From positions 32,001-96,000 of IMG/VR virus record IMGVR_UViG_3300031998_000028: a stretch of 64,000 bases of DNA; one strand, written 5' to 3'. The notes beneath the pieces are model-generated. The model was given only the letters and a program-made list of their open reading frames with translations. It was not told where the DNA came from and ran no database searches. Origin of the DNA: a virus. Taxonomy: Duplodnaviria > Caudoviricetes. A program made the translations under genes and the position numbers. Positions 3,171-50,060 of the stretch are shown here, one piece after another (position 1 is the first letter of the stretch; the number at the start of each line of letters is the position of its first letter).

Positions 3171-5504
3171 TTATAGACTTGAAATACTAATTACATGGTT
3201 ATTAGTTAATTTTATTAATCTGACGCCTTGTGTATCACGAAGGGACAGTGGAATATCATTGTACTTGATACGAATTTGAGTTGTTGTTGAATTAATGAGT
3301 ATATCTTCAGTAGAAACCAATGGTATAAAGTCACACATTTGTTCTGATTTTTGGATACGTACACCTTTAGTGTTAGTATTTGTAATATTAAAATCAGAAA
3401 GACGAGTAAGTTTACCATATCCATCTTCAGAAATACTGAATAGCTCTTTTGTCGTGGCTGGGATGGCTCGCGCGCTCTGTACGTAATCACCTGGATTTAA
3501 TTTCATACCCATAATGCCACGAGTTACACGACCAATAGCATTGATAGTGGATGAATTAATCATTATAAATTGACCTGCGCGTGACATTATGCCTATTTTT
3601 TCATCTATTAAAGTAAAGATAGAAGTAATTTCATCACCTGTATCTAGCTTTACAGCTTGCGCGCCGGTATTACGTTTGAGATTATATTCACTGAGCTTAC
3701 TTTTCTTTATGATGCCCTTACGAGTTATAAAGACAATAAAGCGATTTTCTTGTTTTGGATTTAGAATTACTGCGGCCGTGGCATTATCGGTAAGACCATA
3801 AGCAGAGAGATACTGTTTTTCTCCAATGGCAAAAGCATTGAGTTTTGTATGATAATAATTTCCTTTATTATTAAAGAAAAGAATTGTATCTGTATTTTGA
3901 CCTATAAGATTATCGACAATAAATTCATCAGAGTCAAGCTTAAATTTTGCACCGACTCCACCGCGGCGTTGTGTAAAGAGACTGGATGTTTCTATTACAA
4001 ATACTGCACCTTTGTTGGTGAAAGAAATAGAAAGTTGTTTTTCTTCTACTACTTCATCTTCATCGGAGATTATGTCCATAATTTTTGTGCGGCGCGCGTC
4101 ACCCAGTAGTTTAGAAATCTTTTGAAAACCTTTTTCAATTTCTTTATAGAAAAGAGTTTGGTCGTTGAGGATAGCATTAAGTTCGTCGCGCTTTTTCTCA
4201 AGTTCTGCTTTTTCTTTTTCAAGCTTTTCAACTTCCAAATGAGCAAGGCGTGCAAGCTTAAGGTCAAGGACGGCTTTTGCTTGGACATCATCAAGTAGGA
4301 ATTGTTTTGTAAGTTCAACGCGCGCCGTCTGTGAGGATGCACTAGACTTGATGACTTGCACTACTTCATCAATAGAAGCAAGACAAATCAAAAGCCCTTC
4401 AAGGATATGAATGCGGGCTTCTACTTCGTGGAGGTCATATAGAAATCCACAACGATAGACGAGTTTTTCATGTTTTAAATGCTCTTCAAGTGCTGCCTTC
4501 CATCCAAAAACTTGCGGGAAGCGGCCATCACGCAGCATTGTCATATTAATGCCGTAGTGAGATTGAAGTGAGGTATTTTTATAAAGTGATTTAAGAACTT
4601 TGGTTGGATTAGCCTTTTTGACGAGATAAATTTTTAAAAGAATTTTTTCTCCAGTGAGGTCGTTGTAGCGTTCAATACCAGGGTTGTCTTCGGATTCGAT
4701 TAAAGCATTAAGTTCTTCTCGGATTGTAGAAGTATAAACATTGTATGGGATTTCGGTCACTACAAAACAGTTATCTTTGGGGTCCCATTCGACCGTACTT
4801 CTTAACTTACAGGCCGCGCCCGTTCCATTTTTTAATGACTCTTTTACTTGGGATTCATTGAGTAAGGTCGCGCCCGTCGCAAAGTCTGGCGCGCAGTATA
4901 TATCTTCAAAGTCTATATCTGGATTCCACAATAATTTTATAAGTGCTTCATTGACTTCTTTAATATTGAATTGTGGAATCGAACTTGCTGCGCCAACTCC
5001 GATACCAAGAGAACCATTTACTATATTATAGTATCCTTTAGAGGGAAGAATTGCAGGATATTGCTTAGTATCATCATAGTTATCACGCCATTCTGCAATT
5101 GTGTCTTTATCTATATCTTCAATGATATGATTAAAAATCTCTGCCAGGCGTGCGGAGGTATAACGTGGAGCAGACCAGTTACCAGTCATTTTTGCATCGC
5201 CATTAGAACCTTCAACTTCGACAAGCGGATAGCGCATAGCAAAATCTTGGCTTGCGCGCATTATAATACCTTCACAAGAAGCGTCGCCATGAATGTAATA
5301 GTCTGCCATGGCGAGACCAATGGCGTTATTTGTCTTTTTGAACGGCTTACTATGCACAAGTTTATTTTGATACATAGAATAGAAGATTTGACGCGCAGAT
5401 GGCTTGAAGCAATCACGCACATCAGGAAGGGCGCGAGATTGTAATACTGCCCCAGCGTATGACGTAAAGGCAGTATTAATTATATCAGTCATTGTTTGGG
5501 ACAT
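3171..5504 (-). CDS. gyrA: DNA gyrase / type IIA topoisomerase subunit A
   Basis: RALPDVRD, YIHGD, catalytic APRYT, QRRGGVG GyrA-box-like motif and C-terminal pinwheel repeats. No TAG. Confidence 0.93.
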   Translation of the reverse strand: MSQTMTDIINTAFTSYAGAVLQSRALPDVRDCFKPSARQIFYSMYQNKLVHSKPFKKTNNAIGLAMADYYIHGDASCEGIIMRASQDFAMRYPLVEVEGSNGDAKMTGNWSAPRYTSARLAEIFNHIIEDIDKDTIAEWRDNYDDTKQYPAILPSKGYYNIVNGSLGIGVGAASSIPQFNIKEVNEALIKLLWNPDIDFEDIYCAPDFATGATLLNESQVKESLKNGTGAACKLRSTVEWDPKDNCFVVTEIPYNVYTSTIREELNALIESEDNPGIERYNDLTGEKILLKIYLVKKANPTKVLKSLYKNTSLQSHYGINMTMLRDGRFPQVFGWKAALEEHLKHEKLVYRCGFLYDLHEVEARIHILEGLLICLASIDEVVQVIKSSASSQTARVELTKQFLLDDVQAKAVLDLKLARLAHLEVEKLEKEKAELEKKRDELNAILNDQTLFYKEIEKGFQKISKLLGDARRTKIMDIISDEDEVVEEKQLSISFTNKGAVFVIETSSLFTQRRGGVGAKFKLDSDEFIVDNLIGQNTDTILFFNNKGNYYHTKLNAFAIGEKQYLSAYGLTDNATAAVILNPKQENRFIVFITRKGIIKKSKLSEYNLKRNTGAQAVKLDTGDEITSIFTLIDEKIGIMSRAGQFIMINSSTINAIGRVTRGIMGMKLNPGDYVQSARAIPATTKELFSISEDGYGKLTRLSDFNITNTNTKGVRIQKSEQMCDFIPLVSTEDILINSTTTQIRIKYNDIPLSLRDTQGVRLIKLTNNHVISISSL

Positions 5505-36283: not shown

Positions 36284-36358
36284 TAGACCCATACAGCAAA
36301 ACTGTAGAAATGCAATAAAAATATATTGGATATTTATGATTACATTTATAAGGGTCTA
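36284..36358 (+). ncRNA. CAGC-stem (Y-like) RNA copy 1
   Basis: TAGACCC-ATACAGCAA...GGGTCTA. Confidence 0.7.
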
Positions 36359-38097: not shown

Positions 38098-38173
38098 GGT
38101 GCCATCGTCTAGCGGTCAAGGATAGCAGACCCTCAATCTGCTGACACCAGTTCAAATCTGGTTGGCATCACCA
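38098..38173 (+). tRNA. tRNA-Glu(CTC)
   Basis: GCAGA-CCCTCAA-TCTGC; CCA. Confidence 0.92.
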
Positions 38174-38174
38174 G

Positions 38175-39052
38175 CCGTACCTTTAGTCTTTTGAGTTCGA
38201 TAACGAGGAGAAAAGACAGTGAGATTTGAGAGTATTCACTAATCAATAACTCTCCGGCGTTCTGGTGCGTCGTTAAGCTTAAAAAGCCAAACAGCCCTCG
38301 GCGGGTCAAGACACAACGTAAAATAGTTGCCGCCATGTCCAAATGAATGGGTTATGACATTAAACTGTACTCGTTTCCGCGGCTTGGTGCTGCCGCGTCA
38401 AAAAAGTAATCCGGTGGAATAGAAAGTTCGGCCACCTACAAAATAATGGGAACAGTCGCGGGCGCGCGATGGTAAGAAATTACGTATCAAATGTTTTGCC
38501 AACTTCTCTTGGCTGCAAACAAGAGTGCGGTTGTTGCAGCAACCAAAACGTAGACCGGATGCGTTAAGACCGGCGGACATCTCGCCCGTTGAGGAGAGAA
38601 GAGTGGGTAAAAGAGCTAAATCCCACCGCCAGAACATAAGGGCATATGGAATGGTTGGATGCTCGGGGCACCGTGGCCTTTTGCCAACACGGATGATACC
38701 TTGGAGACGTGGGTTCGAACCCCGCCCTGGCGGCTTTGTGGCTGCTGGGTAGTTTAGAAGGTCAAAACACCAGGGACATTAATGGTCGCGTAGGGAACCT
38801 CCTCGTGGTGCGACTGGACGGACAGTAGTATGCGATTACTGAGCCGAGAACTAATTCCCAGATAGTTTCAATCTAATATCGCATAGGATTGAAGTGTACT
38901 CCCCTTAAGCCCAAGGGCGCAGGTTGTGACCAGCGATACAACAGTAACTCGGGATGCGCATGAAATTTCGGCTATAAGGTACACAGCGAGCCGTAGAAGC
39001 AGTACAGCTATCGAATTAAAACTGGGGTAGCGGGCAGTATAATCATACCGCT
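38175..39052 (+). ncRNA. Large structured ncRNA candidate 2, containing a circularly permuted tRNA-like domain (38699-38775)
   Basis: Long-range pairings 38177-38186/38972-38982, 38194-38202/39009-39017 and 38365-38371/39001-39007; no credible ORF. Confidence 0.62.
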
Positions 39053-39057
39053 AATAT

Positions 39058-39134
39058 CGCGCAGTAGTCGAATTGGCGAAGACGCCGGCCCTTCAAGCCG
39101 GAGATTACGGGTTCAATCCCCGTCTGCGTGACCA
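39058..39134 (+). tRNA. tRNA-Glu(TTC)
   Basis: CCGGC-CCTTCAA-GCCGG; CCA. Confidence 0.92.
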
Positions 39135-40873: not shown

Positions 40874-40880
40874 CATATGG

Positions 40881-40955
40881 TCCCCTATGGTGTAATGGTA
40901 GCATAGCTGGCTCTAACCCAGCAGATACCCGTTCAAATCGAGGTTGGGGGTGCCA
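40881..40955 (+). tRNA. Amber-decoding tRNA (anticodon CTA), probably tRNA-Gln
   Basis: GCTGG-CT-CTA-AC-CCAGC; D arm TGGTGTAATGGTAGCA resembles the tRNA-Gln at 44487; weak 1-72 pair; G73; CCA. Confidence 0.88.
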
Positions 40956-45530: not shown

Positions 45531-45606
45531 ACGGATTTAGCTCAACTGGAAGAGCATTGCGTTTACACCGCAGAGGTTATGGGTTCAAGTCCCTTAGTCC
45601 GTACCA
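45531..45606 (+). tRNA. tRNA-Val(TAC)
   Basis: TGCG-TTTACAC-CGCA; CCA. Confidence 0.9.
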
Positions 45607-45608
45607 TT

Positions 45609-45674
45609 AAGACCCGTACAGCAAATATAACTTACAAAACTGCAAATTTTTGGAAGAAGTTTTTATTGGGTCTT
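45609..45674 (+). ncRNA. CAGC-stem (Y-like) RNA copy 3
   Basis: AAGACCC-GTACAGCAA...GGGTCTT. Confidence 0.7.
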
Positions 45675-45680
45675 GTATAT

Positions 45681-45767
45681 GCACGAGTGCTGCAATAGGA
45701 AGCCAGGCATGGTTGAGGTCCATGTGTCCGATAGGACATAGGGGTTCAAGTCCCCTCTCGTGTACCA
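45681..45767 (+). tRNA. tRNA-Leu(GAG)
   Basis: CATGG-TTGAGGT-CCATG; long arm; CCA. Confidence 0.88.
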
Positions 45768-45796
45768 AATAACTAAAAAGAGAAGTGAGAAAAAAA

Positions 45797-46272
45797 TGAT
45801 AAGTCCAACTCATGGAGAAATAACTCTGCGGCAGACCGCACTCTTAATCAAAAATTTCATAGAGTTAGACCCGGATTCACAATATGCAATCTATATTGGT
45901 TCTGATAGTCAAAATACTTACTACACCAAGATGGTAACTGTCATCGCAGTCCATAAGGTCGGCCGCGGTGGTCAGTACTTTTATGAGGTTTCCAAATACG
46001 ACAAGATTCGTGATATTCGCACGAAGCTTTATACGGAAACTCAACTTAGCTTGGATATGACAGGTAGGCTTTTTGATGAATTTGAAGCTCTTGGGTTTGA
46101 ATATGATGCAGATAATATCATGTTCTGTATTCATATTGACGCAGGTAACGGTGGTCCAAGTGGTCAAGTAATACCTGAAGTAGTTGGATATGTTCATTCT
46201 ATGGGTTATAACTGCGAAGTTAAACCAGATAGTCCGATTGCTTCTTGTATTGCAGATAGAATAAGTAAGTAA
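45797..46272 (+). CDS. RNase H-like YkuK (DUF458) family protein
   Basis: IGSDSQ..E...S..IHIDAG..G.S..KPDS..AS..AD motifs. Confidence 0.8.
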
Positions 46273-46279
46273 GTAAATA

Positions 46280-46368
46280 AAGGCGCGCACAGCTAAATCT
46301 ATTATAGCATAATGGTAATGCACCCGACTTGTAATCAGGATATACGGTTCGAATCCGTTTAGCGCCTT
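46280..46368 (+). ncRNA. CAGC-stem (Y-like) RNA copy 4, carrying a tRNA-Thr(TGT)-like D/anticodon/T body
   Basis: AAGGCGC-GCACAGCTA...GCGCCTT enclosing D, anticodon and T arms; no CCA. Confidence 0.7.
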
Positions 46369-46379
46369 GAATAAATAAA

Positions 46380-46452
46380 AAGACACTTGCAGCAAATCTT
46401 TTCTTTAATCGCCATTGAATTATAATATTTTGATTAGATATTAGGGTGTCTT
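46380..46452 (+). ncRNA. CAGC-stem (Y-like) RNA copy 5
   Basis: AAGACAC-TTGCAGCAA...GTGTCTT. Confidence 0.7.
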
Positions 46453-46464
46453 GATACAAACTAA

Positions 46465-46580
46465 TAGACCCATACAGCAATCATTCTTATAGAGAATATG
46501 TTATTGGTTCGATTCCAATTATGCAAGCCATAAATTTTGCGTATTGAGCAATAGGTAGCTCAGTTCTACTAAAGGGTCTA
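46465..46580 (+). ncRNA. CAGC-stem (Y-like) RNA copy 6 with a circularly permuted tRNA domain (YrlA-like)
   Basis: TAGACCC-ATACAGCAA...GGGTCTA enclosing T arm, closed acceptor hairpin and D arm, in that order. Confidence 0.78.
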
Positions 46581-46633
46581 GTCTTTATCTCGACCGAGAT
46601 AAATCATTTTGGAGAAAAAGGAGAAAATAAAAC

Positions 46634-48160
46634 ATGAATTTTACTAACGCTCTTGATAAGGAGTTCAACTATAAGTTGACCGAAAATGGCGGCCTTGCGC
46701 ATAAGTCTACCTGTGACGCGCTCTATGATATGTTTGCCCTGGGTGGCGCATATCGTAGTCGTAGCGATGAGGATTGTGTCTTCCTTTTCATGAAGGCATT
46801 TGAGGAAAGTCCTACTTATGCTATGAAGTGCCTCTTCTATCTGCGTGACATTTTGCAGGGACAGGGCGAACGTCGCTTCTTCCGTGTCTGCATTAAGTGG
46901 GCCGCGGACAACCATCCTTTGGAGATGGAGCGCAATCTCAAGTACGTACCGGAATACGGTCGTTGGGATGACCTATATGCCTTCGTAGGCACCAAGCTGG
47001 AAGCGAGTATGTGGGCCTTCATGTATGAGCAGTTCCGTCTGGATATGGCTTCCAAGACTCCTTCTCTGCTCGGAAAGTGGCTCAAGTCTGAGAATACTTC
47101 CAGCAAGGAGTCTCGCGTCCTTGGCGCAAAGACTCGTAAGGCTCTCGGTATGACTGCGCCTGCCTACCGCAAGGCTCTGTCTTCTCTTCGTAAGCGCATC
47201 AATGTCCTTGAGCGTCTTATGAGTGAGCGCCGTTGGGATGAAATCGAGTTCGATAAAATCCCTTCTAAGGCTGGCCTCATCTACAAGAACGCCTTCGCGC
47301 GTCACGATGTGGAGCGCGCCCGCAATAAGGCTGTGCAGACTTACGAGCAGTTCGCTAAGGATAAGAACACTAAAGTTAACGCCAAGGCTCTATATCCTTA
47401 CGAGGTAGTCGAAAAGGCTATTGACGTGTTCGGTGGTATCTACTGGCGTTGGAACCGCCATGAAGTGCCTTTGGATGATACCAATCGTCTGATGGTCAAC
47501 AAGTACTGGGAGAATCTGGCAGAGTATATCTCTAAGCTGGATATGAACGCTCTTTGTGTTGTGGATACCAGCGGCTCTATGCATGGTACTCCTATTGACA
47601 TCGCAATCTCTCTCGGTATGATTGCGGCTGATAAGGCTCATGGTCCTTTCCATGGACGCTACATCAGCTTCAGTTCTCGTCCTCAGCTCATTAAGGTTGA
47701 GGGTGTGGATTTCGTAGATAAGGTTCGCCGCATCTATGAAACCAATCTTTGCGAGAACACCAATCTCGAAGCAACTTTCGATATGCTTCTCAATGTGGCT
47801 CAGAAGAACCACATGAAGCAGAAGGATTTGCCAGATACCATTATCGTCATCAGCGATATGGAGATTGACTGTGCATATGGTGGCTATGGTTGGAGTTCTG
47901 ACCATAGCGCGGCTCGTGCAAAGAACCGCACCATGATGGAGAATATGCGTCGTAAGTGGGCACGTGCAGGCTATAAGCTTCCTAAGATGGTGTACTGGAA
48001 CGTGGATGCGCGCCAGGATACATTCTTGGATGATGGCCCAGACGTAACTTACGTTAGCGGTGCAAGTGCTATCTTGTTTGAGCAAGTCGCAAAGGGCATC
48101 ACCGCGCAGGACCTCATGTTCGAGAAGCTCGACAGTGAGCGTTACGCAAAAATAAAATAA
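46634..48160 (+). CDS. Ro60/TROVE-like helical + vWA protein (DUF2828-type)
   Basis: N-terminal TENG..ST, LFYLRD..G.GER, YGRWDDL and KW motifs; vWA MIDAS VVDTSGSM, ISDME and YWNV. No TAG; GC-rich third positions. Confidence 0.78.
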   Translation: MNFTNALDKEFNYKLTENGGLAHKSTCDALYDMFALGGAYRSRSDEDCVFLFMKAFEESPTYAMKCLFYLRDILQGQGERRFFRVCIKWAADNHPLEMERNLKYVPEYGRWDDLYAFVGTKLEASMWAFMYEQFRLDMASKTPSLLGKWLKSENTSSKESRVLGAKTRKALGMTAPAYRKALSSLRKRINVLERLMSERRWDEIEFDKIPSKAGLIYKNAFARHDVERARNKAVQTYEQFAKDKNTKVNAKALYPYEVVEKAIDVFGGIYWRWNRHEVPLDDTNRLMVNKYWENLAEYISKLDMNALCVVDTSGSMHGTPIDIAISLGMIAADKAHGPFHGRYISFSSRPQLIKVEGVDFVDKVRRIYETNLCENTNLEATFDMLLNVAQKNHMKQKDLPDTIIVISDMEIDCAYGGYGWSSDHSAARAKNRTMMENMRRKWARAGYKLPKMVYWNVDARQDTFLDDGPDVTYVSGASAILFEQVAKGITAQDLMFEKLDSERYAKIK

Positions 48161-48554: not shown

Positions 48555-48628
48555 GTACCCCTGGTGTAACGGTAGCATATCCGGCTCCAACCCGGCTGGT
48601 CAGAGTTCAAATCTTTGGGGGTATGCCA
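48555..48628 (+). tRNA. tRNA-Trp(CCA)
   Basis: CCGG-CTCCAAC-CCGG; GCCA. Confidence 0.88.
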
Positions 48629-48665
48629 GCGCGCAAGCGTAAATTTTATTAAAGGCAGGTCAAAT

Positions 48666-50060
48666 ATGGAAAGCTTCTTTAATCTCAAGCATCGCAATAC
48701 CACCATTAGAACCGAGATTCTTGCAGGCATTACAACCTTTATGGCTATGGCATATATCTTGTTTGTAAATGCAGGTATGTTTGCCACACTCCCCGATGTA
48801 AGTTATGAAGGTATGTATATTGCAACCGCAATTTCAGCCTGTGTCGGTTCTCTTTTAATTGGTCTTATTGCCAATCTTCCCCTCGCACAAGCATCTGGTA
48901 TGGGACTTAATGCGTATTTTGTCTATTCAGTATGTCTTGGTTTGGGCTTTACTTATGCTAATGCCCTTGTAATGGTTTTGTTTGATGGTATTATGTTTAT
49001 AATACTCACAGCAACAGGACTAAGAAAGCTATTGTTTAATGCAATTCCGACGCCAATTAAAACAGCTATTTCTGCAGGAATTGGTTTATTTATTGCTTAT
49101 ATTGGTCTACAATCTGCTGGTATTATAATTCCTGATGCCTCAACAGCATCCACTATGTCATCTTTTAATGTGTTTAGTGGAGCAGCAAATTGGGCAACAA
49201 TTATGCCTATGCTTGTATCTATGATTACTATATTGATTATCGCGGCCTTGACATCTTTCAAGAAGCGTGGCGCGGTATTAATCGGTATAATTGCAGGTAC
49301 AGTTCTATACTATCTTGGTGGCTTTACAATTCCAGGATTTTATGATGGTTTTGCTTTCTCTACTATTAGCACAGGAAAAGCTTTTGCAGCATTTGGTAAA
49401 GAATCACTATTCGCTGTATTTCGTAATGGTTTTGACTTTAGTGCGTACATTGCCGCACATGGCCAAGCAAACTTTGTTATGAGTCTTGTCACAACAATGA
49501 TTGCGTTTTGTATCGTAGATATGTTTGATACAATGGGTACTTTGTATGGTGCGTGCTCACGCGGCGGCCTTATGAATAAAGATGGTGAAGTTCTTGCTCT
49601 TGACCGCGCAATGCTCAGTGATGCTATTGCCACCACAACTGGCGCAATGTTTGGTACTTCAACTGTAACAACTTTTGTTGAAAGTTCTGCTGGTATCGCA
49701 GAGGGCGGCCGCACAGGACTGGCCGCGGTTGTAACTGCTGGTCTATTCTTTATCTCAATGTTCTTTGCACCTATTGCTTCTCTTATCCCAGGCGCAGCAA
49801 CTGCGGCCGCACTTATCTATGTTGGCGCATTGATGCTTATGTCTCTTAAAGATATTAATTGGGAAGACGCAGAGGTTGCTATTCCGGCATTTTTAACTAT
49901 TACTTTTATGGCATTTAGTTATAGTATTAGTAATGGTATTGGTATTGGTGTCTTGTCTTATACAGTAGTTAAAATGTTTACTGGTAAGATTAGAGAAATT
50001 CATGGAGCAACTTGGGTTATTGACGTGTTGTTCCTCGCAATGTTTTTACTTAGTCACTAA
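48666..50060 (+). CDS. NCS2 AzgA/PbuG-type purine permease
   Basis: EILAGITTF.AMAYI, GMGLNAYF, DMFDT.GT and ESSAGIAEGGRTG motifs; many TM segments. Confidence 0.9.
   Translation: MESFFNLKHRNTTIRTEILAGITTFMAMAYILFVNAGMFATLPDVSYEGMYIATAISACVGSLLIGLIANLPLAQASGMGLNAYFVYSVCLGLGFTYANALVMVLFDGIMFIILTATGLRKLLFNAIPTPIKTAISAGIGLFIAYIGLQSAGIIIPDASTASTMSSFNVFSGAANWATIMPMLVSMITILIIAALTSFKKRGAVLIGIIAGTVLYYLGGFTIPGFYDGFAFSTISTGKAFAAFGKESLFAVFRNGFDFSAYIAAHGQANFVMSLVTTMIAFCIVDMFDTMGTLYGACSRGGLMNKDGEVLALDRAMLSDAIATTTGAMFGTSTVTTFVESSAGIAEGGRTGLAAVVTAGLFFISMFFAPIASLIPGAATAAALIYVGALMLMSLKDINWEDAEVAIPAFLTITFMAFSYSISNGIGIGVLSYTVVKMFTGKIREIHGATWVIDVLFLAMFLLSH

What the first reader, a model, noticed from the sequence alone, without database searches (positions are those of the whole stretch)
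46465..46580. Circularly permuted tRNA mimic with YrlA topology, about 50 nt upstream of the Ro-like gene
Seen, in 5'-3' order: AGAAT (46493-97); variable segment ATGTT; T arm ATTGG-TTCGATT-CCAAT (46503-19); 7-bp acceptor-like hairpin TATGCAA/TTGCGTA closed by a loop (46520-43); TT linker; D arm GAGC-AATAGGTA-GCTC (46546-61); then GTTCT pairing back to AGAAT. The anticodon loop is replaced by the CAGC stem. Known: this T-acceptor-D order, with the protein-binding stem in place of the anticodon arm, is the architecture of bacterial YrlA Y RNAs. This is the strongest single clue that the family is Y-like.
Basis: partly seen in the sequence, partly recalled or inferred. Interest (0 to 1): 0.88.

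Follow-up and report, generated by a model that had tools for sequence, protein, structure and literature searches.

The report
Permuted tRNA mimic beside Ro60-like gene
A 116-base RNA gene in a cattle-gut phage folds like a tRNA with its parts in rotated order and no anticodon. It is held on a conserved "handle" found beside a Ro60-shaped protein gene in many phages, so it is most likely that protein's partner RNA, laid out like the bacterial Y RNA YrlA.

Summary
Window 46465-46580 (+) contains a 5-bp anticodon-like stem, a 5-nt variable segment, a T arm, a 7-bp acceptor hairpin, UU and a D arm. All of this is closed by a 7-bp terminal helix carrying ACAGCAA.

All five helices covary. In 9 close relatives 98.8% of cells pair. 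In 22 model hits from diverse phages 97.3% pair, with 26 of 28 pairs changed on both sides. U8, A14, T54-T55-C56 and A58 are invariant in the 20 permuted members.

The gene 53 nt downstream is DUF2828+DUF7788, not Pfam TROVE. Its AlphaFold model matches only Ro60 structures at the top of the PDB search.

The element has YrlA's topology but is not a YrlA member. Rfam RF02553 gives no hit, and the GNCGAAN0-1G motif is absent. Its handle is instead the stem+ACAGCAA module found next to DUF2828 genes in phages of Mycobacterium, Listeria, Bacillus, Escherichia, Enterococcus, Staphylococcus, Campylobacter and Sinorhizobium. The same module occurs in dictyostelid Class I RNAs.

Two points are new here: a competing local hairpin, and GCCA encoded right after the acceptor 3' strand.

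This scan has already reported the RNA class on other DNA (103 notes in at least 87 genomes). I found no paper or Rfam family that describes it.

The parts
46465..46471 (+). 5' strand of the 7-bp terminal ('handle') helix, TAGACCC
   Evidence: Pairs with 46574-46580. Helix 1 is 96.8% paired in A3 and 98.7% in A4, and all 7 pairs change on both sides across phages.
46474..46480 (+). ACAGCAA motif, 2 nt after the handle helix; presumed protein-binding site
   Evidence: Positions A, C, G, C and the final A are invariant in 20/20 permuted members; the other two are 19/20 and 17/20. Stem + NN + ACAGCAA occurs 32 times on the gene strand and once on the opposite strand in 69 DUF2828 loci; shuffles give 0.6.
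46483..46497 (+). Competing local hairpin ATTCTT-ATA-GAGAAT (uses the same AGAAT)
   Evidence: It is in the MFE structure. It is 92.6% paired with 5 covarying pairs in the close clade. It is found in register in 9 of 20 members only.
46493..46497 (+). 3' half of the anticodon-like stem (tRNA positions 39-43), AGAAT
   Evidence: Pairs with 46563-46567. It is 100% paired with all 5 pairs covarying in A3, and 5/5 pairs in 14 of 20 distant members.
46498..46502 (+). 5-nt variable segment ATGTT (positions 44-48)
   Evidence: The last base, U48, can form the Levitt pair with A15. Across members the 15:48 pair is A:U 16, G:C 1, A:C 3.
46503..46519 (+). T arm ATTGG-TTCGATT-CCAAT
   Evidence: 100% paired. 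T54, T55, C56 and A58 are invariant in 20/20.
46520..46543 (+). Acceptor-like 7-bp hairpin: 3'-strand equivalent 46520-26, GCCA 46527-30, spacer TAAATT 46531-36, 5'-strand equivalent 46537-43
   Evidence: 98.4% paired in A3 and 96.6% in A4, where all 7 pairs change on both sides. The loop starts with GCCA in 8 of 9 close relatives and with ACCA in one L243 copy.
46544..46545 (+). UU linker (tRNA positions 8-9)
   Evidence: U8 is invariant in 20/20.
46546..46561 (+). D arm GAGC-AATAGGTA-GCTC
   Evidence: 100% paired in A3 and 97.6% in A4, with 3-4 covarying pairs. A14 is invariant, and GG is present in all 20 D loops listed.
46563..46567 (+). 5' half of the anticodon-like stem (positions 27-31), GTTCT
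   Evidence: Pairs with 46493-46497.
46574..46580 (+). 3' strand of the handle helix GGGTCTA, followed by GT
   Evidence: Family members end in similar tails..AGT..TGT..GGT.
46584..46603 (+). Conserved hairpin between the RNA and the ribosome-binding site of the DUF2828 gene
   Evidence: Invariant stem with a changing loop in L001-L003. An analogous hairpin plus GAGAAAAAGGAGA precedes most homologous genes. Function not tested.
46634..48160 (+). DUF2828+DUF7788 (vWA, MIDAS DxSxS) protein, predicted Ro60-like ring; presumed partner
   Evidence: Pfam. PHROG 850 'RNA-binding protein'. AF2 model pLDDT 80.9. The top 12 PDB matches are all Ro60/TROVE, E 2e-7 to 6e-5.
46280..46368 (+). Sibling handle RNA carrying a normal-order tRNA-Thr(UGU)-like body without an acceptor stem
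   Evidence: Rfam tRNA 42.3 bits, model positions 5-66. ARAGORN does not call it. Handle AAGGCGC/GCGCCTT with ACAGCTA.
46380..46452 (+). Sibling handle RNA without a tRNA-like part
   Evidence: AAGACAC..GCAGCAA..GTGTCTT.
45609..45674 (+). Sibling handle RNA between tRNA-Val and tRNA-Leu
   Evidence: R1 scores it 27.7 bits.
36284..36358 (+). Sibling handle RNA starting one base after the CCA of tRNA-Gly
   Evidence: Folds with z = -4.5.

Best explanation
The element is a small non-coding RNA with two modules, analogous to a Y RNA.

Module 1 is a handle: a 7-bp terminal helix plus the unpaired ACAGCAA on its 5' side. Five other small RNAs of this phage share it, as do RNAs flanking DUF2828 genes in unrelated phages. 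I infer that it is the binding site of the DUF2828 protein encoded 53 nt downstream, which is predicted to be a Ro60-like ring with a vWA/MIDAS domain.

Module 2 is a circularly permuted tRNA body: anticodon-like stem, variable segment, T arm, 7-bp acceptor helix capped by a loop, U8, D arm. It keeps the nucleotides that build the tRNA elbow but has no anticodon loop. I infer that it presents a tRNA-shaped surface to tRNA-binding proteins and so tethers them to the ring, as YrlA is proposed to do for Rsr. Candidates are RNase P, modification or CCA enzymes, or host tRNA-targeting defence proteins.

Shown here: the fold, by covariation; tRNA-likeness; strand-specific linkage to the gene; the protein's Ro60-like predicted fold; and presence in RNA libraries.

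Inferred: physical binding of the handle by the protein, what the tRNA module recruits, and the biological role. The role is probably RNA surveillance or counter-defence during infection.
For: - Structure: 28 pairs in 5 helices are 98.8% paired in 9 relatives, against 77% in shuffles and 24-46% in slid controls; 17 pairs change on both sides. In 22 model hits from diverse phages 97.3% pair and 26 of 28 pairs change on both sides.
- tRNA-invariant U8, A14, T54-T55-C56 and A58 are 20/20.
- The re-permuted sequence is called a tRNA by ARAGORN; the native one is not.
- Linkage: 32 handle elements lie on the gene strand and 1 on the opposite strand in 69 DUF2828 loci.
- Handle RNAs lie next to the gene in Wilder, P100, PJN02, L27, EFDG1, S-CoN_Ph12, Los1 and phiM7. 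Permuted tRNA-like versions occur in five of these.
- Protein: the top PDB matches of the model are all Ro60, including Thermus phage phiLo Ro60.
- RNA-library contigs from two bovine-gut studies span 46304-46574 and 46323-46513 at near identity.
- Literature: YrlA has this layout and sits by rsr (PMC4201824). The Felixounavirus Bas63 gp130 is reported as Ro60-like, lies upstream of tRNA genes and counters the Ppl defence (PMC11482910). I infer, but did not check, that gp130 is a DUF2828 homologue.
Against: - No binding data exist.
- Rfam YrlA does not score the element, and the YrlA/Ro60 motif GNCGAAN0-1G is absent. The Ro60 analogy therefore rests on predicted fold only (TM about 0.5, 13% identity).
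- Energy-based folding prefers a local hairpin that would break the anticodon-like stem.
- The RNA evidence comes from assembled contigs, which cannot show ends, strand or level, and DNA carry-over is not excluded.
- The wider alignment A4 was fitted to the model, which inflates its pair counts.
- This phage has no RtcB, RNA ligase or CCA-adding enzyme, so the RNA-repair operon context of Salmonella YrlA is missing.
Confidence: 0.7

Rival explanations
1. It is a cis-acting leader of the DUF2828 mRNA. On this reading the tRNA-like fold and the following hairpin act as a processing site (RNase P or RNase Z entry) or as an autoregulatory operator that controls translation or stability of the downstream gene, rather than as a trans-acting partner RNA.
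For: - The element ends 53 nt before the ATG, on the same strand.
- No promoter-like or terminator-like site was found between them.
- RNA-library contigs run from the element into the gene: 46339-46753 and 46534-46866.
- A conserved hairpin and a strong purine-rich ribosome-binding site follow it.
- M. smegmatis YrlA/YrlB and rsr are likewise made from one precursor (PMC4201824).
Against: - In Wilder, L27 and S-CoN_Ph12 the handle RNAs lie downstream of the gene.
- In this phage two siblings lie 1 kb and 10 kb away, directly after tRNAs.
- Most DUF2828 genes have the hairpin and ribosome-binding site but no tRNA-like element within 200 nt.
- Co-transcription is compatible with later release as a stable RNA.
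Confidence: 0.12
2. It is a two-piece tRNA precursor. RNase P cuts before 46537 and trimming stops at the encoded GCCA (46527-30). This gives a nicked, CCA-ended tRNA-like molecule, held together by the acceptor and handle helices, that is used as a substrate by CCA-recognising or aminoacylating enzymes. M. smegmatis YrlA is cut and CCA-tailed in this way.
For: - The acceptor helix is 7 bp, which Chen et al. cite as the major RNase P determinant (PMC4201824).
- The position before the cut would be U.
- G+CCA directly follows the 3' strand in 8 of 9 close relatives, and ACCA does so in one L243 copy.
- All true tRNAs of this phage also encode CCA.
Against: - CCA is missing in L005 and in most distant members, whose loops are only 3-7 nt. 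It may therefore be a relic of descent from a head-to-tail tRNA pair.
- There is no anticodon, and the acceptor stem sequence is not conserved, so charging by most synthetases is unlikely.
- No data on RNA ends are available.
Confidence: 0.1
3. It is a decaying remnant of a tandem tRNA duplication (the junction of two tRNA genes) with no function of its own.
For: - The layout equals the junction of two identical tRNAs, and GCCA plus a short spacer sits where a tRNA 3' end and an intergenic spacer would be.
- My model R1 scores true tRNA-tRNA junctions at 22-27 bits. Chen et al. warn of the same artefact.
- The 3' half resembles the phage's tRNA-Gln(UUG).
Against: - There are compensatory changes in every helix across phages of different phyla.
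- The invariant elbow nucleotides are kept.
- There is never an anticodon loop, and the element is always enclosed by the handle.
- It scores 126 bits, against 22-27 bits for real junctions.
Confidence: 0.03

Closest known systems
YrlA Y RNAs of bacteria and mycobacteriophages (Rfam RF02553; Chen et al. 2014, PMC4201824)
   Same: - The order of parts is the same: outer protein-binding stem, anticodon-like stem, variable segment, T arm, acceptor-like stem-loop, 2 nt, D arm (Rfam consensus).
- tRNA-invariant nucleotides and the Levitt pair are kept.
- It is encoded next to, and on the same strand as, a Ro60-shaped protein.
- It is accompanied by sibling RNAs that share the handle but lack the tRNA module, as YrlB does.
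   Different: - There is no RF02553 hit.
- The handle is a 7-bp helix + NN + ACAGCAA instead of GNCGAAN0-1G and bulged stems.
- The partner is DUF2828/DUF7788, not Pfam TROVE.
- It has a 7-bp acceptor helix with encoded GCCA, and a clade-specific competing hairpin.
- There is no RtcB/RtcA context.
Class I RNAs of dictyostelid social amoebae (Kjellin et al. 2021, PMC7919456)
   Same: Both have a short terminal stem joining the 5' and 3' ends, an unpaired conserved motif right after the 5' strand that contains ACAGCAA (CCTTACAGCAA in the amoebae), a variable interior and a short ..TG tail. I read the sequences in the paper's supplement.
   Different: Class I RNAs are 42-65 nt, eukaryotic, driven by a DUSE promoter and carry no tRNA-like insert. 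Their reported direct binder is the RRM protein Rnp1A, and the authors found them only in Dictyostelia. Common descent is not shown here.
Ro60/Y-RNA-like particles of phages with canonical TROVE proteins (Thermus phage phiLo Ro60 with Yrl1/Yrl2, PMC12135203)
   Same: A phage-encoded Ro60-fold ring with small RNAs encoded just upstream. phiLo Ro60 (9kop, 9l5y) is among the best structural matches of the window's protein.
   Different: The phiLo RNAs were recognised by the CGAA motif, not by ACAGCAA, and the protein there is a recognisable TROVE protein.
Circularly permuted tRNA genes of the red alga Cyanidioschyzon merolae (from my own knowledge, not checked here)
   Same: The 3' half of the tRNA precedes the 5' half in the gene, with the acceptor ends joined by a short spacer.
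   Different: Those genes yield a normal tRNA with an anticodon loop after circularisation and RNase P/Z cuts. Here the anticodon stem opens into the handle and there is no anticodon.

Membership tests
YrlA (Rfam RF02553) | T arm, then acceptor-like stem-loop, then D arm, closed by stems that replace the anticodon loop | tested here: met
   Sequence; covariation in all helices; same layout as the RF02553 consensus line.
YrlA (Rfam RF02553) | Conserved tRNA nucleotides and tertiary pairs (U8-A14, G18/G19 with T-loop, T54-A58, Levitt 15:48) | tested here: met
   U8, A14, T54, T55, C56 and A58 are 20/20; 15:48 is A:U or G:C in 17/20.
YrlA (Rfam RF02553) | Score at or above the family's gathering threshold (69 bits) | tested here: not met
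   No RF02553 match over 46250-46700 at E<=10 or in the whole genome search. The model is in the library: it weakly hits 38686-38795 (23.1 bits) and phage Wilder (21.4 bits).
YrlA (Rfam RF02553) | GNCGAAN0-1G motif near the 5' end (proposed Rsr contact) | tested here: not met
   A regex over 46401-46640 finds none. The conserved 5' motif is ACAGCAA.
YrlA (Rfam RF02553) | Encoded within 4 kb of, and on the same strand as, a Ro60 (TROVE) orthologue | tested here: inconclusive
   It lies 53 nt upstream on the same strand. The protein is DUF2828+DUF7788 with no Pfam TROVE hit at E<=10. Only its predicted fold matches Ro60.
YrlA (Rfam RF02553) | Bound by Ro60/Rsr; pseudouridine 55 and dihydrouridine made by TruB and DusA | not testable with these tools
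   Needs immunoprecipitation and modification mapping.
Stem+ACAGCAA 'handle' RNAs beside DUF2828 genes (no published family found) | 7-bp terminal helix of free sequence, 2 nt, then ACAGCAA on the 5' side | tested here: met
Stem+ACAGCAA 'handle' RNAs beside DUF2828 genes (no published family found) | Same strand as, and close to, a DUF2828 gene, often among tRNA genes | tested here: met
   32 versus 1 by strand in 69 loci. Seen in eight cultured phage lineages.
Dictyostelid Class I RNA | Short terminal stem plus 11-nt motif CCTTACAGCAA next to the 5' strand | tested here: inconclusive
   7 of the 11 nt (ACAGCAA) and the architecture are shared. The preceding CCTT is not conserved here.
Dictyostelid Class I RNA | 42-65 nt, DUSE promoter, dictyostelid genome | tested here: not met
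   116 nt, in a phage genome. Definition from PMC7919456.
tRNA (RF00005) or permuted tRNA gene | 7-nt anticodon loop and continuous cloverleaf | tested here: not met
   No tRNA call by Rfam or ARAGORN on the native sequence. The anticodon-like stem opens into the handle.

The most novel reading that the evidence does not exclude
The permuted tRNA module is a working decoy or adaptor. After RNase P cleavage in the acceptor loop and trimming to the encoded GCCA, it would become a nicked, CCA-ended tRNA top half tethered to a Ro60-like DUF2828 ring. It could toggle between the local-hairpin and cloverleaf forms. Phages would use it to capture or misdirect host enzymes and defence nucleases that act on tRNA. 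The stem+ACAGCAA handle would be the same protein-binding module as in dictyostelid Class I RNAs, so an unrecognised ribonucleoprotein would span phages, bacteria and eukaryotes.
Probability: 0.15. Interest if true: 0.9.

Novelty: new variant of a known kind. Interest (0 to 1): 0.7.

Why it matters
Ro60/Y-RNA particles are known from animals, some bacteria and a few phages, and the tRNA-mimic YrlA is their best-studied bacterial RNA.

This element shows the same design, a tRNA body opened at the anticodon and tied to a protein handle, built on a different handle and a different, very divergent Ro60-like protein. That protein, DUF2828, is present in 705 phage records, including Felix O1-type, P100-type and cluster E mycobacteriophages.

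It gives concrete, testable RNA partners for a protein that a genetic screen reports as a counter to a bacterial defence (Bas63 gp130). It also flags probable mis-annotations such as the 'tRNA-Asn' of phage Wilder.

The ACAGCAA handle it shares with amoebal Class I RNAs suggests a candidate protein family to test as a partner of those RNAs.

Tried and rejected
- Rfam at gathering and at E<=10 gave nothing but tRNAs and noise over the element. The loci of cultured phages also gave tRNAs only.
- blastn of 46280-46640 against 50,697 phage records found no match.
- The exact 16-mer TAGACCCATACAGCAA in IMG/VR gave 33 hits. Most lie in unrelated contexts that show no closing stem and look like chance or coding matches. 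Only L086, L088, L094, L097, L103, L105 and L113 are family members.
- One pattern was mistyped with an extra N and gave 4 irrelevant hits.
- A profile of the protein against PDB sequences gave no Ro60, only noise at E>0.1. Pfam TROVE was not hit even at E<=10.
- RtcB, the CCA-adding/poly(A) polymerase family and RNA ligase are all absent from the 96%-complete genome.
- The sigma-70 promoter and terminator scan of 45600-46700 found nothing near the element.
- RNA runs: the four runs laid are assembled contigs. They give no ends, strand or levels. The uncovered stretch 45682-46227 and the depth differences cannot be used as evidence.
- tblastn of the neighbouring DUF458 protein against all fetched loci found it only in the three closest relatives.
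- I considered the handle as terminal repeats of a mobile element and rejected it: the stem covaries instead of being conserved, and no target duplication is seen.
- I considered a functional permuted tRNA gene and rejected it for lack of any anticodon loop.
- Complex prediction was not used, because it cannot model RNA.

Full report
**Setting**

The window is bases 32001-96000 of a 114,915-bp virus record that is 96% complete. Its closest relatives come from cattle-gut and rumen samples. It carries 33 tRNA genes on the + strand between 36.2 and 50.4 kb, including a CUA-anticodon tRNA. The finding lies at the end of three tandem small-RNA candidates, directly before a 508-aa gene.

**Observation**

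In order it contains:
- outer helix TAGACCC / GGGTCTA
- AT, then ACAGCAA
- AGAAT (46493-97)
- ATGTT
- T arm ATTGG-TTCGATT-CCAAT
- acceptor hairpin TATGCAA ... TTGCGTA, with loop GCCATAAATT
- TT
- D arm GAGC-AATAGGTA-GCTC
- A
- GTTCT, pairing back to AGAAT
- ACTAAA, then the 3' strand of the outer helix

Mapped on tRNA numbering this is 39-43, 44-48, 49-65, 66-72, [loop], 1-7, 8-9, 10-25, 26, 27-31.

A strict descriptor for 'T arm, adjoining hairpin, 2 nt, D arm' finds only this site and one other (38714) on the + strand. It finds none on the - strand and none in 100 shuffles.

If the two halves are re-joined through any 7-nt loop, ARAGORN calls a 76-nt tRNA. The native order gives no call.

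**Is the fold real?**

Homologues of the downstream protein in IMG/VR and a descriptor scan of all fetched loci gave related elements.

In an unbiased MAFFT alignment of nine close relatives (A3), the five-helix model is 98.8% paired. Shuffles give 77% and slid controls 24-46%. Seventeen of 28 pairs change on both sides, including all five pairs of the long-range anticodon-like stem.

A covariance model built from it (R1) scores the window element at 126 bits, relatives from other phages at 30-80 bits, and true tRNA-tRNA junctions at only 22-27 bits.

The 22 best hits, aligned to the model, are 97.3% paired, with 26 of 28 pairs changed on both sides. That alignment is fitted to the model, so the figure is generous.

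Across the 20 permuted members, U8, A14, T54, T55, C56 and A58 are invariant. The 15:48 pair is A:U or G:C in 17. The determinants of the tRNA elbow are therefore under selection.

**Two nuances**

First, AGAAT can also pair with ATTCT just upstream, forming a local hairpin at 46483-97. Energy-based folding prefers this form by about 3-6 kcal/mol in eight of nine relatives, and it covaries too (92.6% paired). However, it is in register in only 9 of 20 members. The long-range stem is 5/5 paired in 14 of 20. I read the cloverleaf as the conserved fold and the hairpin as a clade-specific competitor: a possible folding intermediate or switch, or the counterpart of YrlA's 'V' stem-loop.

Second, the acceptor loop begins with G+CCA right after the 3' strand in 8 of 9 close relatives, and with ACCA in one L243 copy. 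Most distant members lack it.

This layout is what the junction of two head-to-tail tRNA genes would give: anticodon arm, variable segment, T arm, acceptor 3' strand, CCA, spacer, acceptor 5' strand, D arm, anticodon 5' strand. That suggests how such modules arise. It also leaves open an RNase P cut like the one reported for M. smegmatis YrlA, whose acceptor stem is likewise 7 bp (PMC4201824).

**The handle and the family**

The outer helix plus ACAGCAA is not peculiar to this element. My script recovers six such elements in the window: 36284, 40378, 45609, 46280, 46380 and 46465. Their helices differ but always pair, and a CAGC core is kept; two of the six vary the motif (GCAGCAA, ACAGCTA).
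- One starts a single base after the CCA of tRNA-Gly.
- One (46280-46368) carries a normal-order tRNA-Thr(UGU)-like body without an acceptor stem.
- Only 46465-46580 carries the permuted body.

With a strict definition (7-bp helix, 2 nt, exact ACAGCAA), 69 distinct DUF2828 loci hold 32 elements on the gene's strand and 1 on the other. Shuffles give 0.6.

The same elements flank the homologous gene in cultured phages of very different hosts:

| Phage | Host genus | Handle RNAs near the gene | Permuted tRNA-like member |
|---|---|---|---|
| Wilder | Mycobacterium | three downstream | yes |
| P100 | Listeria | three upstream | none detected |
| PJN02 | Bacillus | at least five | yes |
| L27 | Escherichia | four downstream | yes |
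| EFDG1 | Enterococcus | at least three | yes |
| S-CoN_Ph12 | Staphylococcus | three downstream | none detected |
| Los1 | Campylobacter | two upstream | none detected |
| phiM7 | Sinorhizobium | three | yes |

Rfam reports only tRNAs in the four of these loci that I scanned: P100, PJN02, L27 and EFDG1.

**The protein**

The gene at 46634-48160 hits DUF2828 and DUF7788, with a weak vWA match, but not TROVE. It belongs to PHROG 850 'RNA-binding protein'. Homologues occur in 705 phage records, some annotated 'Ro-like RNA binding protein'.

A profile search of PDB sequences finds no Ro60. However, the AlphaFold model (pLDDT 80.9, pTM 0.80) has Ro60/TROVE structures as its twelve best PDB matches over the full length. 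These have E 2e-7 to 6e-5 and TM about 0.5, and include D. radiodurans Rsr and Thermus phage phiLo Ro60. The vWA MIDAS residues D311, S313 and S315 are invariant. 'Ro-like' is thus supported at the level of predicted fold.

**Expression**

Four RNA libraries from two bovine-gut studies contain near-identical contigs over 46304-46574, 46323-46513, 46330-46528, 46339-46753 and 46534-46866. The stretch is therefore present in RNA libraries and is contiguous with the gene. Contigs cannot give ends, strand or abundance, so this is weak support only.

**Comparison with known systems**

The topology is that of YrlA (PMC4201824; Rfam consensus). Membership fails on two tested features: no RF02553 hit and no GNCGAAN0-1G motif. 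In the GC-rich Wilder element the YrlA model does recognise the tRNA-like core, at 21 bits.

The handle matches the published architecture of dictyostelid Class I RNAs: a terminal stem, then CCTTACAGCAA, a variable interior and a ..TG tail.

The PhageMaP preprint reports that Bas63 gp130 is Ro60-like, lies before tRNA genes and counters the Ppl defence. It speculated, without identifying them, that some neighbouring 'tRNAs' are Y RNAs. I did not verify that gp130 belongs to the DUF2828 family.

I found no paper linking DUF2828 to RNAs.

**Verdict**

This is a real, conserved, circularly permuted tRNA mimic on a stem+ACAGCAA handle. It is most likely a Y-RNA analogue for the DUF2828 Ro60-like protein. 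It works like YrlA but is not a member of that family.

This scan has already described the RNA class on other genomes. The class as such is therefore not new to the scan, though it appears unpublished.

Noticed in passing
window 38686-38795 (inside the non-coding gap 38173-39058): A second T arm - hairpin - D arm permuted tRNA-like domain. It gives the best, though weak, Rfam YrlA hit in the genome (23.1 bits, full model length). It sits in an 880-nt GC-richer stretch with no ORF between two tRNA-Glu genes. My model R1 does not hit it.
   Followed up: partly
window 46280-46368: A tRNA-Thr(UGU)-like body in normal order (Rfam tRNA 42 bits, model positions 5-66) whose acceptor stem is replaced by a handle helix with ACAGCTA. 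ARAGORN does not call it. The same element is present in L001-L003, and a similar one in L004.
   Followed up: partly
window 46584-46603, and about 40 nt upstream of the start codon in most of L004-L080: A conserved hairpin (CCTCTTGTCCAAGAGG in many loci; TTATCTCG..CGAGATAA here) followed by GAGAAAAAGGAGA precedes DUF2828 genes. In many loci it lies downstream of a TTGATT...TATAAT promoter-like pair. It may be an operator or a processing site.
   Followed up: no
L117:4527-4648 (Mycobacterium phage Wilder): The annotated tRNA-Asn (4528-4598) overlaps a handle RNA (GGACTCC..TACAGCAA..GGAGTCC) that holds an anticodon-arm-like hairpin plus a permuted T-hairpin-D module. Its supposed acceptor strands do not pair, so the annotation is probably wrong. 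Two further handle RNAs flank it.
   Followed up: partly
L248:5026-5233 (Staphylococcus phage S-CoN_Ph12): Three tandem handle RNAs lie directly after the DUF2828 gene. The first overlaps a 29-codon 'hypothetical protein' CDS (5013-5102), which is probably spurious.
   Followed up: no
window 45760-46272; L249:4978-5502 (Vibrio phage phi-Grn1): A DUF458 / RNase H-like gene (PF04308) sits next to the DUF2828 locus both here and, by annotation, in a Vibrio T4-like phage. tblastn found it only in the three closest relatives among the fetched loci.
   Followed up: partly
L244:5271-6497 (Listeria phage P100): An RtcB-type 'tRNA splicing ligase' lies about 1.2 kb downstream of the DUF2828 gene, recalling the Salmonella rsr-yrlBA-rtcBA operon. 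The window's own phage has no RtcB.
   Followed up: partly
window 40880-40955 and ORFs across the window: There is a tRNA with anticodon CUA, and many ORFs lengthen when TAG is read as a sense codon (62 ORFs listed with TAG=Q, many with internal TAG).
   Followed up: no
window 48615-50060: A 481-aa xanthine/uracil permease family gene (PF00860, E 7e-36) lies inside the tRNA island of a phage.
   Followed up: no
L243:4264-7305: One IMG/VR contig carries three different permuted tRNA-like handle RNAs within 3 kb (68, 53 and 50 bits with R1).
   Followed up: partly
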